Assembly (NCBI GenBank): GCA_039595515.1
Contig: JBCNLJ010000010.1
Location: 18,197-82,196, forward strand
From: Paenibacillus sp.
Lineage (GTDB): Bacteria; Bacillota; Bacilli; Paenibacillales; Paenibacillaceae
Reading direction: 5' to 3'
DNA length: 64,000 nt
A program made the position numbers and the translations under genes. Below the pieces are notes generated by a model, which was given only the letters and a program-made list of their open reading frames with translations, did not search any database and was not told the DNA's origin. This document shows positions 16,616 to 20,588 of the stretch, in pieces (within the stretch, counting starts at the first letter, position 1; each line of letters begins with the position of its first letter).

Positions 16616-16795
16616 TAGAGATAGAGATAGAGATAGAGATAGAGATAGAGATAGAGATAGAGATAGAGCAATAGAAACAGAAACAGTAACAGAAACAGTA
16701 ACAGAAACAGAAACAGTAACAGAAACAGTAACAGTAACAGTAACAGCCCAAGTTCAAGCCAAATCCAAATCCAAATTCAAATTTAAAGCTAAAGC
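16616..16795. repeat. Compound hexanucleotide microsatellite
   Basis: (TAGAGA)8 then TAGAGC, a mixed ACAGAA/ACAGTA run to about 16746, then CCAAAT/TAAAGC-type hexamers. Confidence 0.95.
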
Positions 16796-18032: not shown

Positions 18033-19223
18033 TTATCCACTCGTCGGGTTGGCCTTCAAGCCAAGCGTCATCACAAAAGCAATCAACAAAATAACACAGC
18101 CTGCCACAAAGGGAGCGAACATATGCAGATCAAATAAACCGCCTGCCAAAAGTGGCCCTATAATATTGCCCATACTCATGTACGCATTGTTCATACCCGC
18201 CACATAGCCCTGCTCCGTTCCAGCCATTTTGGATAACTGTGTATTTAAAGCCGGACGCAGCATCGAGGTGGCAAAGAAAATAGTGGAAGTGAGCAGCAAT
18301 ATGCTCCAAAAACCGGTTGCCAGCAGCAATACGATATACGCGAGTGACGTTGCCAGCAGACAAGCTTTGATCACCCTCGGCTCACCAAACCGTTTCATCG
18401 TTCGTGCCACAAGGAAAGCCTGCATAACGACGCCAATGATAGCGCCGGTAGTCAAAATAACGGCAATATGCTGTGGTGAGAACTGGAAACGTTTCGTTAC
18501 ATATAATCCAAGCACCGATTCAAAATTAGCCAATCCAAACGTCATCACCAGCACAAGTATAAAGAGTGGCGTATACTTCGATTGCAGCGATTTTGCGTAT
18601 TGTTTGAGCAGGGACGGTTGTGGAGTACGATTAGCGCGTGCGGCCTGTCTATGCTGCTTCGATACACTTTCCGGCAAACAGAAGATGGAAAAGATAACGC
18701 CGATTATCGCTGCCCCTGCTGCTACCCAGAGTGGAACGCGTGTGCCATAGCTGGCAAGCATACCGCCAAGCCCTGGTCCAATGACAAATCCGGCAGACAT
18801 AGCAGCACTTAACAGGCTGTTTCCTCTGGCGCGCTGCTCGGTCGTTGTAATATCAGCCACATAGGCCATCATCGGAGGCACGATCAAAGCTGCTGCTACA
18901 CCTTCCAGCAATCTGGACACGTACAGCATCCATAATGCATCGCCAACTGCAAAGATTAATTTGGCGATCGCAAATACGATAACACCGATAACGATAAAAA
19001 TTTTCCGTCCGAAGCGATCTGACTGTCGTCCTGTTATCGGAGAAAGGAGAAACTGCGTAATTCCATAAGCAGCTACCAGCAGTCCAATCGCCTGTCCGCT
19101 GGCTCCAAATTCGATGATAAGCTGTGGCAAGATTGGTGTGATCAGTCCTACACCTACCATGACGATGAATATGTTAATCATAAGAACGGCGAGTATCCGA
19201 TTGGGATTAGTAAATGTAAACAT
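18033..19223 (-). CDS. MFS multidrug efflux pump, Bmr/Blt/NorA (DHA1) family
   Basis: GLITPILP, motif A GRQSDRFGRK, GFVIGPGLGG, about 12 TM segments. ATG 19223 follows AGGAGG. Confidence 0.9.
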   Translation of the reverse strand: MFTFTNPNRILAVLMINIFIVMVGVGLITPILPQLIIEFGASGQAIGLLVAAYGITQFLLSPITGRQSDRFGRKIFIVIGVIVFAIAKLIFAVGDALWMLYVSRLLEGVAAALIVPPMMAYVADITTTEQRARGNSLLSAAMSAGFVIGPGLGGMLASYGTRVPLWVAAGAAIIGVIFSIFCLPESVSKQHRQAARANRTPQPSLLKQYAKSLQSKYTPLFILVLVMTFGLANFESVLGLYVTKRFQFSPQHIAVILTTGAIIGVVMQAFLVARTMKRFGEPRVIKACLLATSLAYIVLLLATGFWSILLLTSTIFFATSMLRPALNTQLSKMAGTEQGYVAGMNNAYMSMGNIIGPLLAGGLFDLHMFAPFVAGCVILLIAFVMTLGLKANPTSG

Positions 19224-19530
19224 AGGGAGACCTCCTGCTTTGTGCAATAGTTTGTGGATCGTATGTGTCTGAATCTGTACGACGGACCATGCAAAAAACC
19301 TCCATATCCAAACATCGCTGGATAGGAGGTAGGCAGACGAACAGTAAGACAGACTGCTCTTTTACGAGCAGCCGCAGTCCACTATTGCTATAAAAAGCCA
19401 TACTAATCCTATCCGCACATTCGTAATGCTACAAACGAAATGTTTTGTTACGGAAGTAGGATTAGTAGATCATTGGCTTGAAGTCACCCTTTCGGTATGT
19501 GTTGATATGATCATACCATCGTTGTGATGA
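19224..19530 (-). promoter_or_regulatory. Structured attenuator-type 5' leader of the efflux gene (two terminator-like hairpins)
   Basis: Extended -10 TGGTATGAT near 19510-19518. Hairpin 1 at 19397-19477 followed by U5; hairpin 2 at 19298-19330 followed by U6. Confidence 0.7.
19462..19473 (-). CDS. Putative 3-codon leader peptide MIY
   Basis: AAAGGGTGA RBS (19484-19492), then ATG ATC TAC TAA, lying inside the 5' arm of hairpin 1. Confidence 0.45.
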   Translation of the reverse strand: MIY

Positions 19531-19580
19531 GGTTGTATATGAGGCATTTGGATGTATTGTCCTACCGATTAACGGATGGG

Positions 19581-20588
19581 CTACGATAGATCACTGACAC
19601 GTTGCTTTAGAAATTGCTCAACTGCTTCTGTCCCTTTTCCGCCGTTTTGATCCACGAGCTTGAGCAGATCAGACAGATCGGTTAACAAGCGGCTATTTTT
19701 GATCTGCTCAGCGCTGTAACTGTTGAGCGCCTTGCGGTAGCCTGCTTCAAACAGCGGATCAATCTCCTGCGTCTGTGGATCGAATAATGGCGTGTTGTCA
19801 GAACCATAAAAAATGTAAAATTTCATCAGTCGGTAATTGTCTTCAACTGCTGTGCGACGATTGGATACGGGATAACGATTCAAAAATGTCTCCGTTGCCA
19901 GTCCACGCTTAAGCAGCTCTGTCGGTGAGATGACAATTCCGGCATCATAGGCTGTTGGTGCTTTGACTTCAGCCGCCATAATATTGATATAGTCTATAAT
20001 GTCGCCATGAATATAATTGAAAAATGTACTAAATGCCGGATAATCAATGATCGGATAAAATACACCTTCACTCGTTTCCAGTCCATAGCCCATTGCACCG
20101 AGTTGCTGTAATGCCTCGCGGTCGGCTTTATTAGTGAACGTCGCTGCCGCTTGATTGATCGTCATATTGGCTTTGTAATTACGTAGCAGCCCGTCTTGAA
20201 TCGATTCCTTATAAATTAGATTTGACGCATAGTCCATATGCTTCATATAGGCATTTTCCAATTGCAATACCGCCATACTGGCACGATATGAATCGAACTG
20301 TTTGATGCGATTAACGAGTGTTGCGCGTGCCAACCCGAGCGTGCTCGGCTTTTGTAAACGTTGCAAAAATAAATGATAGGAGCGTTGTGCGGTATCTGCG
20401 CTAACCGCTTGTTTGGCGCTTGTAGTCGCACTCGCTGCATAGGCACCAGGTAATAGTGAAGATGGCACAGCAACCCCTGTACCGAGCATCACGGCTGCCA
20501 GTACGGCTGTCGTCAGCGGACGAGTATACCTTTTTTGTGTGCCCCGGGAATGGATGGCGTGTTGAGTATGTTTTCCCTGTGTGTTCAT
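19581..20588 (-). CDS. Secreted hypothetical protein
   Basis: Basic N-terminus with hydrophobic signal peptide (AVLAAVMLGTGVAV...AYA), GGGGG RBS, helical mature region with no recognised motif. Confidence 0.75.
   Translation of the reverse strand: MNTQGKHTQHAIHSRGTQKRYTRPLTTAVLAAVMLGTGVAVPSSLLPGAYAASATTSAKQAVSADTAQRSYHLFLQRLQKPSTLGLARATLVNRIKQFDSYRASMAVLQLENAYMKHMDYASNLIYKESIQDGLLRNYKANMTINQAAATFTNKADREALQQLGAMGYGLETSEGVFYPIIDYPAFSTFFNYIHGDIIDYINIMAAEVKAPTAYDAGIVISPTELLKRGLATETFLNRYPVSNRRTAVEDNYRLMKFYIFYGSDNTPLFDPQTQEIDPLFEAGYRKALNSYSAEQIKNSRLLTDLSDLLKLVDQNGGKGTEAVEQFLKQRVSDLS

What the first reader, a model, noticed from the sequence alone, without database searches (positions are those of the whole stretch)
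19392..19520. Three-codon uORF (MIY) embedded in a terminator stem upstream of a Bmr/NorA-type efflux pump: candidate antibiotic-sensing attenuator
Seen (minus strand): extended -10 TGGTATGAT, RBS AAAGGGTGA, then GCCA-ATG ATC TAC TAA TCCTA..., which pairs with ...TAGGATTAGTA-TGGC followed by TTTTT. The start codon is bulged and the Tyr and stop codons lie in the 5' arm. Established: 3-codon uORFs control antibiotic-responsive attenuation of B. subtilis vmlR and Listeria lmo0919 (as I recall, MIN and MKF). Inference: a drug-stalled ribosome on MIY would block the terminator and induce the MFS pump, possibly an undescribed riboregulator family.
Basis: partly seen in the sequence, partly recalled or inferred. 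Interest (0 to 1): 0.7.

Follow-up and report, generated by a model that had tools for sequence, protein, structure and literature searches.

The report
Antibiotic-sensing leader upstream of efflux pump
A roughly 210-nt RNA leader with a three-codon mini-gene sits before a NorA-like drug pump in a Paenibacillus genome and probably turns the pump on when antibiotics stall ribosomes; it is a diverged relative of the known Bacillus vmlR leader.

Summary
These are the extended -10, the SD GAAAGGGTGA, the uORF ATG-ATC-TAC-TAA (MIY, 19473-19462) and a long hairpin followed by U5.

The reading needs one correction. That hairpin (SL-1, 19479-19395) is an anti-antiterminator, not the decisive terminator. 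A second, universally conserved terminator lies at 19329-19293 (CCUCCUAUCCAG...UGGAUAUGGAGG + U6).

The 3' side of SL-1 (GGAUAGGA) can pair with the terminator's 5' arm (UCCUAUCC). Across 34 related leaders this antiterminator helix is 96% paired and shows compensatory changes.

Rfam aligns the leader end to end with RF02452/ncr1575, the B. subtilis vmlR leader, but only at 27.9 bits (threshold 60).

The leader precedes all orthologues examined, from eight Paenibacillus species, of this NorA-like MFS pump. A genome scan found the same leader subtype before another MFS family, Vat acetyltransferases, a Vgb lyase and a Cfr methyltransferase. ABCF genes carry sister subtypes.

Best explanation: ribosome stalling on the mini-uORF, probably caused by lincosamide, pleuromutilin or streptogramin A drugs, relieves termination.

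Verdict: a real element and a new variant of a known kind. Induction itself is untested.

The parts
19510..19539 (-). Predicted sigma-A promoter. -35 TATACA is at 19539-19534 and the TG-extended -10 TGgTATGAT at 19518-19510. The predicted TSS is near 19503.
   Evidence: Consensus scan and sequence reading. Both hexamer regions are conserved in 4 close relatives while the flanks diverge. The TSS was not measured; the RNA contig X25 starts at 19483.
19484..19493 (-). Shine-Dalgarno of the uORF (GAAAGGGUGA). It is single-stranded and lies 5' of SL-1.
   Evidence: Nearly invariant in 34 leaders. Rfam aligns it with the AGAAGGG of the vmlR leader. Mutating that sequence abolishes the 30S toeprint and induction in B. 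subtilis.
19462..19473 (-). Three-codon uORF AUG AUC UAC UAA (Met-Ile-Tyr-stop). The AUG is in a bulge; the Tyr and stop codons are in the 5' arm of SL-1.
   Evidence: It is identical in orthologous leaders found through the protein, not through the RNA pattern. These carry MIY in P. kandeliae, hunanensis, polymyxa, caseinilyticus, chitinolyticus, taiwanensis and riograndensis, and MIH in P. elgii.
19395..19479 (-). SL-1, the anti-antiterminator hairpin. It is followed by U5 at 19396-19392 and is a possible pause site or weak first terminator.
   Evidence: -31.6 kcal/mol, z = -6.1. The middle stem is 91.7% paired across 34 leaders. One lower-stem pair switches between C-G (17 sequences) and A-U (14 sequences).
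19407..19414 (-). 5' strand of the antiterminator (GGAUAGGA). It lies inside the 3' arm of SL-1.
   Evidence: Pairs with 19327-19320. The family-wide 10-bp helix CUGGAUAGGA/UCCUAUCCAG is 96.4% paired, against 30-42% in slid controls. It has G-C to A-U compensatory changes at two pairs. It forms in the minimum-energy fold once the ribosome footprint is blocked.
19347..19380 (-). SL-2, the central hairpin that becomes the apex of the antiterminator. It corresponds in position to the vmlR pause hairpin.
   Evidence: -17.4 kcal/mol, z = -3.9. Compensatory changes occur in this domain among 12 orthologous leaders. The NusG motif TTNTTT is not present here.
19293..19329 (-). SL-3, the intrinsic terminator. 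The stem is CCUCCUAUCCAG / UGGAUAUGGAGG (19329-19299) and is followed by U6 (19298-19293). Its 5' arm holds the antiterminator 3' strand UCCUAUCC (19327-19320).
   Evidence: -17.2 kcal/mol, z = -4.1. Present in every leader examined. RNA contig X25 ends at 19301. In a P. megaterium-like relative, a soil metatranscriptome contig ends exactly at the last U of the equivalent terminator.
19207..19290 (-). Spacer between the terminator and the pump gene. It contains an AUG 8 nt after the terminator's GGAGG that opens a 27-codon out-of-frame ORF overlapping the pump start. This is probably a relic of the compact arrangement.
   Evidence: In P. polymyxa and P. chitinolyticus the pump's own AUG sits at this position, and the terminator 3' arm AAGGAGG serves as its SD. 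The small ORF is not conserved; it is cut to 7 codons in P. kandeliae.
18033..19223 (-). Regulated gene: a 396-aa DHA1 MFS efflux pump of the NorA/Bmr type. Its own SD AGGAGG is at 19236-19231.
   Evidence: Pfam MFS_1, 197 bits. Full-length match to S. aureus NorA, E 5.8e-76. Below every curated Tet/MDR cut-off in NCBIfam. Orthologues occur across Paenibacillus.

Best explanation
The 5' leader of the NorA-like MFS gene is a ribosome-dependent transcription attenuator. It is built like the B. subtilis vmlR leader and distantly related to it.

Without drug:
- The nascent RNA folds SL-1, which contains the three-codon uORF and sequesters GGAUAGGA.
- SL-2 forms next, followed by the terminator SL-3.
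- RNA polymerase stops at 19298-19293, leaving a leader RNA of about 210 nt.

With drug:
- A ribosome stalls on the uORF with its start codon in the P site. This is the behaviour caused by peptidyl-transferase-centre drugs such as lincosamides, pleuromutilins and streptogramin A, and possibly chloramphenicol.
- The stalled ribosome covers the 5' arm of SL-1.
- The freed 3' arm pairs with the 5' arm of the terminator, forming an antiterminator with SL-2 at its apex.
- The terminator cannot form, and transcription continues into the pump gene.

Shown here: the sequence elements, their conservation, covariation of the antiterminator helix, the thermodynamic switch, homology to the vmlR leader, and RNA contigs that match a leader ending at SL-3.

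Inferred, not shown: that the uORF is translated, that drugs induce read-through, which drugs do so, and what the pump exports.
For: 1. Rfam aligns 19505-19293 with all 212 positions of RF02452 ncr1575, including CAAUGAU.UACUAAUC.UA, UAGGAUUAG and the final terminator. ncr1575 lies between vmlR and ydgF, so it is the vmlR leader.

2. For vmlR, experiments established four points: SL-1 is the anti-antiterminator, SL-3 is the terminator, AGAAGGG is the SD, and uORF(MIN) translation is needed for lincomycin induction.

3. Unconstrained folding gives SL-1 + SL-2 + SL-3. Blocking positions -15..+16 around the AUG replaces the terminator with the GGAUAGGA/UCCUAUCC pairing. Across 37 related leaders the terminator is in the free fold in 30. 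It is largely lost in 23 when the footprint is blocked.

4. The antiterminator helix is 96.4% paired in 34 leaders. It has 7 compensatory cells at 2 pairs, against 30-42% pairing in slid controls. In the second MFS subtype the CCAG part lies in the terminator loop, so only the antiterminator explains its conservation.

5. Orthologues were found by protein homology in 8 Paenibacillus species (68-89% identity). All carry the leader, with nhmmer E 1e-38 to 1e-45 for the four scored this way. Homologues at 50-55% identity carry none.

6. RNAalifold on 12 orthologous leaders predicts 53 pairs, 7 of them with compensatory changes.

7. The same leader subtype precedes Vat streptogramin A acetyltransferases, a Vgb-like lyase, a Cfr-family methyltransferase and a Tap/Mef-like MFS family. 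Sister subtypes precede 58 ABCF genes.

8. RNA evidence in the window: run X25 holds only a leader contig, 19483-19301.

9. RNA evidence in a relative: in the P. megaterium-type leader, a soil metatranscriptome contig at depth 205 spans exactly from near the start to the last U of SL-3. CDS contigs sit at about 50, with none over the first ~190 nt after the terminator.
Against: - No experiment or positional RNA-seq exists for this organism. The RNA evidence consists of assembled contigs, whose depths and ends are crude.
- A second contig (X26) ends at 19387, just after SL-1's U-tract. It also starts upstream of the predicted -10. Termination at SL-1 and read-through from the upstream gene therefore cannot be excluded.
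- The Rfam score is well below threshold (27.9 against 60).
- SD-to-AUG spacing is long, at 13 nt from GGG.
- The NusG pause motif TTNTTT of vmlR is absent.
- In 10 of 37 relatives the thermodynamic model keeps the terminator even with the footprint blocked.
- The pattern used for the genome scan fixed the uORF length, the stop codon and both SL-1 arms. Their conservation within scan-derived loci is therefore circular. Only the protein-derived loci and the antiterminator partner strand are independent.
- Drug specificity rests on guilt by association. NorA-type pumps are not known lincosamide, pleuromutilin or streptogramin exporters.
Confidence: 0.75

Rival explanations
1. One reading: SL-1 plus U5 (19479-19392) is itself the regulated terminator. 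A ribosome stalled on MIY simply prevents that hairpin from forming, and the downstream hairpins are incidental.
For: - SL-1 ends in GGC followed by UUUUU.
- 25 of 37 related leaders have at least 4 U directly after SL-1.
- Contig X26 ends at 19387.
Against: - The U-tract is missing in the P. polymyxa-group orthologues (GGCUUUGGG) and in 12 of 37 leaders. The SL-3 terminator is always present.
- The 6-nt bulge near the stem base weakens SL-1 as a terminator.
- Contig X25 runs through 19392 to 19301. The equivalent RNA in a relative ends at SL-3.
- This model does not explain the covarying GGAUAGGA/UCCUAUCC helix.
- In vmlR the homologous hairpin is the anti-antiterminator.

The most likely partial truth is that SL-1 plus the U-run acts as a pause site or a leaky first stop.
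Confidence: 0.12
2. Control is mainly translational. The hairpins mask the pump's ribosome-binding site, as in the erm, cat and fexA leaders, and transcription termination is secondary.
For: In compact relatives (P. polymyxa, P. chitinolyticus and many of the second MFS subtype) the terminator's 3' arm AAGGAGG is the SD of the resistance gene, 7-9 nt before its start. For cplR and vmlR an additional SD-masking layer has been described.
Against: In this window the pump has its own SD (19236-19231), 55 nt beyond the U-tract and outside the terminator hairpin. SL-3 has a full U6 tract. The RNA contigs stop at it.
Confidence: 0.07
3. The conserved ~210-nt RNA is a free-standing trans-acting small RNA, as Rfam labels ncr1575. 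Alternatively it is a ligand- or protein-binding riboswitch, and the three-codon ORF is fortuitous.
For: The leader accumulates as a discrete, abundant RNA. Rfam lists the related family as 'sRNA'.
Against: - It always sits directly upstream of, and co-oriented with, a resistance gene. The gene changes (MFS, Vat, Cfr, ABCF) while the leader stays.
- The SD and uORF are conserved in the orthologous leaders found through the protein.
- The homologous vmlR element has been shown to act in cis through uORF translation.
- No Rfam riboswitch model matches.
Confidence: 0.04

Closest known systems
B. subtilis vmlR leader (Rfam RF02452 ncr1575; Takada et al. 2022, PMC9226507)
   Same: - Free SD (GAAAGGG here, AGAAGGG in vmlR).
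- Three-codon uORF with the AUG in a bulge of SL-1.
- Shared core CAAUGAU.UACUAAUC.UA ... UAGGAUUAG.
- A central hairpin, then an intrinsic terminator.
- Anti-antiterminator / antiterminator / terminator logic.
- Full-length Rfam alignment.
   Different: - Scores 27.9 bits against the 60-bit threshold; a true vmlR leader scores 178.
- The uORF is MIY, not MIN.
- The antiterminator uses a different register (CUGGAUAGGA/UCCUAUCCAG).
- No TTNTTT NusG motif.
- No SL-4 SD-masking hairpin was identified.
- The regulated gene is an MFS pump, not an ABCF ribosome-protection protein.
Other three-codon uORF leaders of ARE-ABCF genes: VmlR2 (MK[L/Q]), CplR (MR[I/M]) and Lmo0919/VgaL (Obana et al. 2023, PMC10201436)
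   Same: A mini-uORF in a 5' hairpin, followed by a terminator that can also mask the SD. All are induced by drugs that stall initiating ribosomes. MKL- and MKQ-type leaders turned up in the same genome scan.
   Different: These are different sequence subtypes, and all the described cases regulate ABCF proteins.
B. subtilis uORF-attenuated transporters ytbDE (MFS) and bmrCD (ABC)
   Same: Efflux-type genes placed under ribosome-stalling transcription attenuation. The principle of a pump behind a uORF attenuator is therefore already known.
   Different: I could not compare the ytbD leader sequence. bmrCD uses a longer leader peptide (bmrB). Neither is reported to be vmlR-like.
Translation-attenuation leaders of ermC, cat, cmlA, fexA and tet(L) (from general knowledge)
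   Same: A drug-stalled ribosome on a leader ORF remodels the downstream RNA to switch on a resistance gene.
   Different: Those leaders use peptides of roughly 8-20 residues with drug-specific stalling motifs, and they unmask an SD. Here the ORF has three codons and the output is relief of an intrinsic terminator.
S. aureus NorA / B. subtilis Bmr and Blt (DHA1 12-helix MFS multidrug pumps)
   Same: Full-length similarity of the regulated protein to NorA, E 5.8e-76, residues 8-387 against 2-374.
   Different: From general knowledge, norA, bmr and blt are controlled by protein regulators (MgrA, BmrR, BltR), not by a uORF leader. The substrates of the Paenibacillus pump are unknown.

Membership tests
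Rfam RF02452 (ncr1575 = vmlR leader) | Covariance-model score at or above the gathering threshold of 60 bits | tested here: not met
   Window 27.9 bits, E 0.093, full-length alignment. Related MFS and Cfr leaders score 35-41 bits. The positive control, the B. mojavensis vmlR leader, scores 178 bits.
Rfam RF02452 (ncr1575 = vmlR leader) | Located directly upstream of a vmlR-type ABCF gene | tested here: not met
   The downstream gene is a NorA-like MFS pump.
Rfam RF02452 (ncr1575 = vmlR leader) | Architecture: free SD, uORF-bearing SL-1, central hairpin, terminal intrinsic terminator | tested here: met
uORF-dependent transcription attenuators of resistance genes | Short uORF with its own SD, conserved among orthologues | tested here: met
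   SD and uORF are invariant or near-invariant in orthologous leaders from 8 Paenibacillus species found through the protein.
uORF-dependent transcription attenuators of resistance genes | Mutually exclusive anti-antiterminator, antiterminator and terminator structures | tested here: met
   Constrained folding. The antiterminator helix is 96.4% paired with compensatory changes.
uORF-dependent transcription attenuators of resistance genes | Premature transcript end at the leader terminator | tested here: inconclusive
   Contigs from RNA runs match this: window 19483-19301, and a relative's leader ending at the last U of SL-3. These are assembled contigs, not mapped 3' ends, and one contig ends after SL-1 instead.
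uORF-dependent transcription attenuators of resistance genes | uORF translation and antibiotic-induced read-through | not testable with these tools
   Needs toeprinting, reporter fusions or Term-seq with and without drug.
vmlR-type regulation | NusG-dependent pause motif TTNTTT after SL-2 | tested here: not met
   No TTNTTT lies between SL-1 and SL-3 in the window. It is present in only some relatives.
NorA/Bmr-type DHA1 MFS efflux pumps | Full-length sequence similarity to NorA and an MFS_1 domain | tested here: met
   E 5.8e-76 to PDB 7lo7 NorA. PF07690 scores 197 bits.
NorA/Bmr-type DHA1 MFS efflux pumps | Drug efflux activity and substrate range | not testable with these tools
   No curated NCBIfam resistance model reaches its cut-off.
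erm/cat/fexA-type translation attenuators | Leader peptide of about 8 residues or more, with an SD-masking hairpin and no terminator | tested here: not met
   The ORF has three codons, the terminator has a U6 tract, and the pump's SD lies outside the hairpin in this window.

The most novel reading that the evidence does not exclude
The window holds one member of an apparently undescribed, widespread Bacillales leader subtype, a sister of the vmlR leader. This subtype puts mechanistically unrelated resistance genes under one three-codon-uORF sensor of peptidyl-transferase-centre inhibitors. The genes are a NorA-like MFS pump, a Tap/Mef-like MFS pump, Vat, Vgb and Cfr. Together with the ABCF leaders in the same genomes they would form a drug-stalled-ribosome stimulon. 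This would imply that the NorA-like pump exports such antibiotics.
Probability: 0.35. Interest if true: 0.75.

Novelty: new variant of a known kind. Interest (0 to 1): 0.55.

Why it matters
Three-codon uORF attenuators have been worked out for ABCF ribosome-protection genes (vmlR, vmlR2, cplR, lmo0919). Here the same kind of sensor, in a recognisably related form, controls a NorA-type efflux pump. In other Bacillales it controls a second MFS family, streptogramin acetyltransferases, a streptogramin lyase and a Cfr rRNA methyltransferase.

If this holds up, it gives three things:
- A sequence signature that flags inducible resistance genes current RNA-family annotation misses, because these leaders score below the Rfam threshold.
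- A testable prediction of the inducers, and possibly the substrates, of an uncharacterised and widely conserved Paenibacillus pump.
- A natural series of uORF variants (MIY, MIN, MII, MNN, MIH, MKY, MYN) on a common scaffold. This series could be used to ask how a tripeptide ORF tunes drug sensing.

Tried and rejected
- **Terminator scan.** The simple scan found neither leader hairpin, so I relied on folding instead.
- **RNA runs for the window.** Only three low-share RNA-like runs exist. They gave two leader contigs and one CDS contig from a relative, with no positional depth.
- **Raw 2026 RNA runs carrying a holder's species label.** No reads laid on the region.
- **P. polymyxa-group RNA-seq.** The region is held as single multi-kb contigs with flat depth, which is uninformative.
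- **Locus from the look-up of encoding contigs.** It could not be sent to the run finder.
- **Literature.** Searches for a vmlR-type or three-codon leader before MFS, Vat or Cfr genes found nothing. The Paenibacillus LC231 resistome paper does not mention efflux or leaders. Dar et al. 2016 (PMC5756622) is not held, so prior description there cannot be excluded.
- **Riboswitch or other Rfam family.** Rejected; ncr1575 is the only meaningful hit.
- **27-codon ORF after the terminator (19290-19207) and the 64-aa ORF 19401-19207.** Rejected as genes because neither is conserved.
- **No covariance model built.** nhmmer with the alignment profile, RNAalifold and pair counting covered the questions asked here.
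Full report
**Observation**

- A TG-extended -10, TGgTATGAT (19518-19510), with a weak -35 TATACA (19539-19534).
- A purine-rich SD, GAAAGGGTGA (19493-19484).
- A three-codon ORF, ATG ATC TAC TAA (19473-19462).
- A long imperfect hairpin whose base, AAGCCA/UGGCUU, and middle stem, CUACUAAUCCUA/UAGGAUUAGUA, enclose the ORF. AUGAUC is bulged, and UUUUU follows at 19396-19392.

The hairpin (SL-1, 19479-19395) folds at -31.6 kcal/mol, z = -6.1 against dinucleotide shuffles. The whole leader has z = -5.8.

- SL-2 (19380-19347; -17.4 kcal/mol, z = -3.9).
- A textbook intrinsic terminator, CCUCCUAUCCAG-loop-UGGAUAUGGAGG (19329-19299), followed by U6 (19298-19293; -17.2 kcal/mol, z = -4.1).

**The regulated gene and the organism**

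The downstream ORF (19223-18033, 396 aa, own SD AGGAGG at 19236-19231) is a DHA1 major-facilitator pump.
- Pfam MFS_1 scores 197 bits.
- There is a full-length match to S. aureus NorA, E 5.8e-76.
- No curated NCBIfam resistance model reaches its cut-off.

'Bmr/NorA-type' is therefore fair, but the substrate is unknown. The closest proteins are from Paenibacillus: P. kandeliae 89%, P. hunanensis 87%, and the P. polymyxa group about 77%. Homologues at 50-55% identity occur in Aneurinibacillus, Brevibacillus and Bacillus.

**Relationship to a known element**

A permissive Rfam scan gave one meaningful hit. RF02452 ncr1575 aligns over all 212 model positions to 19505-19293 at 27.9 bits (threshold 60, E 0.093). 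The family consensus contains CAAUGAUUAACUAAUCUUAU, which reads AUG AUU AAC UAA, or Met-Ile-Asn.

ncr1575 was defined as the transcript between vmlR and ydgF in B. subtilis, so it is the vmlR leader. Takada et al. 2022 established the following for that leader.
- SL-1 carries uORF(MIN) in a bulge and acts as an anti-antiterminator.
- SL-2 is a NusG-dependent pause hairpin.
- SL-3 is the intrinsic terminator.
- AGAAGGG, about 14 nt upstream of the AUG, is the SD. Mutating it abolishes the 30S toeprint.
- Mutations of the SD or the start codon abolish lincomycin induction.

The window's GAAAGGG aligns with that validated SD. As a control, a genuine vmlR leader (B. mojavensis) scores 178 bits, while leaders of the window's type score 35-41 bits. 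The window element is thus a diverged relative that Rfam-based annotation would miss.

**Conservation among orthologues (independent of any RNA pattern)**

I fetched loci through the pump protein only. The species were P. kandeliae, P. hunanensis, P. polymyxa (three assemblies), P. caseinilyticus, P. chitinolyticus, P. taiwanensis, P. riograndensis and P. elgii, at 68-89% protein identity.

All carry the leader directly upstream. For the last four, nhmmer E-values were 1e-38 to 1e-45. The uORF is MIY in seven species and MIH in P. elgii.

In the three closest relatives the leader is almost invariant, while DNA upstream of the -35 is unalignable. Three homologues at 50-55% identity (Aneurinibacillus, B. 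methanolicus, Brevibacillus) have no leader.

RNAalifold on 12 orthologous leaders recovers SL-1, the SL-2 domain and SL-3. It predicts 53 pairs, 7 of them with compensatory changes, mostly in SL-2 and the apex of SL-1.

**Which hairpin is the terminator?**

The U-run after SL-1 is not conserved.
- P. polymyxa-group leaders read GGCUUUGGG.
- 12 of 37 related leaders lack a run of at least 4 U there.

SL-3 with its U-tract is present in all of them.

The 3' side of SL-1 contains GGAUAGGA (19414-19407), the exact complement of UCCUAUCC in the 5' arm of SL-3 (19327-19320).

Thermodynamic folding of the window leader gives SL-1 + SL-2 + SL-3. Blocking positions -15..+16 around the AUG mimics a ribosome held at initiation. 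The minimum-energy structure then pairs GGAUAGGAUU with the terminator arm, puts SL-2 at the apex, and loses the terminator completely. This is the geometry proposed for vmlR.

Across 37 non-ABCF leaders the terminator is in the free fold in 30. It is largely lost in 23 when the footprint is blocked.

On an alignment of 34 such leaders the 10-bp antiterminator CUGGAUAGGA/UCCUAUCCAG behaves as follows.
- 96.4% of cells are paired, against 30-42% in slid controls.
- G-C to A-U double changes occur at two pairs, in 7 sequence cells.

In one subtype the CCAG portion lies in the loop of the terminator, so only the antiterminator accounts for its conservation and covariation.

SL-1's middle stem is 91.7% paired but almost invariant. 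One lower-stem pair alternates between C-G (17 sequences) and A-U (14 sequences).

**RNA evidence**

The evidence is thin but points the same way.

In the window, two RNA-like runs contain only leader contigs.
- One covers 19483-19301. It passes straight through SL-1's U-tract and stops 3 nt before SL-3's U-tract.
- The other covers 19526-19387 and then continues with 11 unrelated nucleotides. It ends just after SL-1, but it also begins upstream of the predicted -10. It may therefore derive from read-through from the upstream gene, or from DNA.

For a related leader in Priestia megaterium, a soil metatranscriptome holds a 204-nt leader contig at depth 205. One end abuts the sequencing adapter within the SD region, about a dozen nt into the predicted transcript. 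The other end is exactly the last U of SL-3. CDS contigs there have depth of about 50, and nothing covers the first ~190 nt after the terminator.

Other RNA-seq runs hold the region only as long flat contigs or not at all.

**The wider family**

A genome-collection scan used the pattern AATG-N6-TAATCYTA-N25-55-TARGATTAG. It hit its 120-locus limit. About 22 hits are chance matches in unrelated phyla without an SD. The remaining ~98 are Bacillales leaders.

Downstream genes cluster as follows.

| Downstream gene | Loci | Notes |
|---|---|---|
| ABCF ribosome-protection genes | 58 | vmlR-type context GAAGGGAUGAUGGGUGGACAAUG; also MKL/MKQ types matching the published VmlR2 consensus |
| TIGR00900 / Tap / Mef-like MFS family | 20 | |
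| Window's NorA-like pump | 5 | additional Paenibacillus species |
| Vat streptogramin A acetyltransferase | 3 | 351 bits, above the 300-bit equivalog cut-off |
| vat remnant followed by a Vgb-like streptogramin B lyase | 1 | |
| Cfr-family 23S rRNA methyltransferase | 1 | 547 bits, above the 468-bit cut-off |
| LmrB-like DHA2 pump | 1 | behind an MKQ-type leader |

All the non-ABCF genes except the last share the window's subtype. That subtype is defined by the SD context GGAAGGGUGAC, the CUGGAUAGGAUUAG strand and the terminator CCUCCUAUCCAG.

Three genomes carry both an ABCF-type and an MFS-type leader: Peribacillus loiseleuriae, a P. megaterium strain and Neobacillus fumarioli.

One caveat applies. 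The scan pattern fixes the uORF length, the stop codon and the SL-1 arms, so those features are not independent evidence within scan-derived loci. The antiterminator partner strand, the terminator and the gene content are independent.

**Mechanism and inducers**

Vat, Vgb, Cfr, LmrB-like and ABCF genes all counter drugs that bind at or near the peptidyl-transferase centre. The vmlR and cplR work attributes induction to drugs that arrest ribosomes right after initiation, which suits a three-codon ORF.

I therefore infer that lincosamides, pleuromutilins and streptogramin A, and perhaps chloramphenicol, which induces vmlR, induce this pump. This is inference by association. Neither the inducers nor the pump's substrates have been shown.

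In compact relatives the terminator's 3' arm AAGGAGG is also the SD of the resistance gene, adding a translational layer. In the window, a spacer of about 70 nt with a new SD has separated the two.

SL-1 plus its U-run may serve as a pause site or a leaky first terminator.

**Novelty**

Pumps behind uORF attenuators are known in principle, for example B. subtilis ytbDE and bmrCD and the classical tet(L) and fexA leaders. Three-codon uORF leaders are well described for ABCF genes.

I did not find, in the searchable literature, any description of a vmlR-related leader in front of a NorA-type pump, nor of the shared subtype linking MFS, Vat, Vgb and Cfr genes. Dar et al. 2016 could not be read.

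I rate this a new variant of a known kind. The element is real and conserved. Its mechanism is strongly supported by comparative analysis, and experimental confirmation is missing.

Noticed in passing
L027:6894-7372 (minus strand), Paenibacillus sp. J2TS4: Two complete leaders of this type sit in tandem, 66 nt apart, in front of a Cfr-family rRNA methyltransferase gene. Their uORFs are MYN and MKY, and each has its own terminator. This looks like a double attenuator.
   Followed up: partly
L114:2159-3796 (minus strand), Paenibacillus oleatilyticus: The leader is followed by a truncated vat remnant of 96 aa and then a Vgb-like streptogramin B lyase (376 bits). The intact vat version is in P. 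tyrfis (L039). A streptogramin A/B resistance pair may therefore share one leader.
   Followed up: partly
window 19207-19290 (minus strand): An AUG 8 nt after the terminator's GGAGG opens a 27-codon ORF that overlaps the pump's start out of frame. In compact relatives the pump's own start sits at that position. The ORF is probably a relic, but it could couple translation.
   Followed up: partly
window 16616-16746: Two adjacent hexanucleotide microsatellites lie in the intergenic region between the LysR-type regulator gene and the tautomerase/CMD-fusion gene. They are (TAGAGA)x8.8 at 100% identity and (AGAAAC)x12. They create spurious repeat-peptide ORFs on both strands.
   Followed up: partly
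window 19581-20588 (minus strand): The co-oriented upstream gene encodes a 335-aa protein with no Pfam or NCBIfam match. It is conserved in synteny in P. kandeliae and P. hunanensis. No terminator separates it from the leader, so read-through into the leader is possible.
   Followed up: no
L018:960-1173, Priestia megaterium plasmid unnamed1 (NZ_CP130959.1): A copy of the MFS-type leader with its Tap/Mef-like pump gene lies on a 183-kb plasmid as well as on P. megaterium chromosomes (L024, L087). The leader-gene cassette may therefore be mobile.
   Followed up: no
L030:6932-7175 (minus strand), Bacillus taeanensis: An LmrB-like DHA2 lincomycin-type pump sits behind an MKQ-uORF leader of the kind otherwise seen before VmlR2-like ABCF genes. 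This is a second, independent case of an ABCF-type leader attached to a pump.
   Followed up: no
L020:5075-5273 (minus strand), Paenibacillus alkalitolerans: This leader copy has lost its SD (TATATTGTGCGACC) and is followed only by a short GNAT fragment. It looks like a decaying leader.
   Followed up: no
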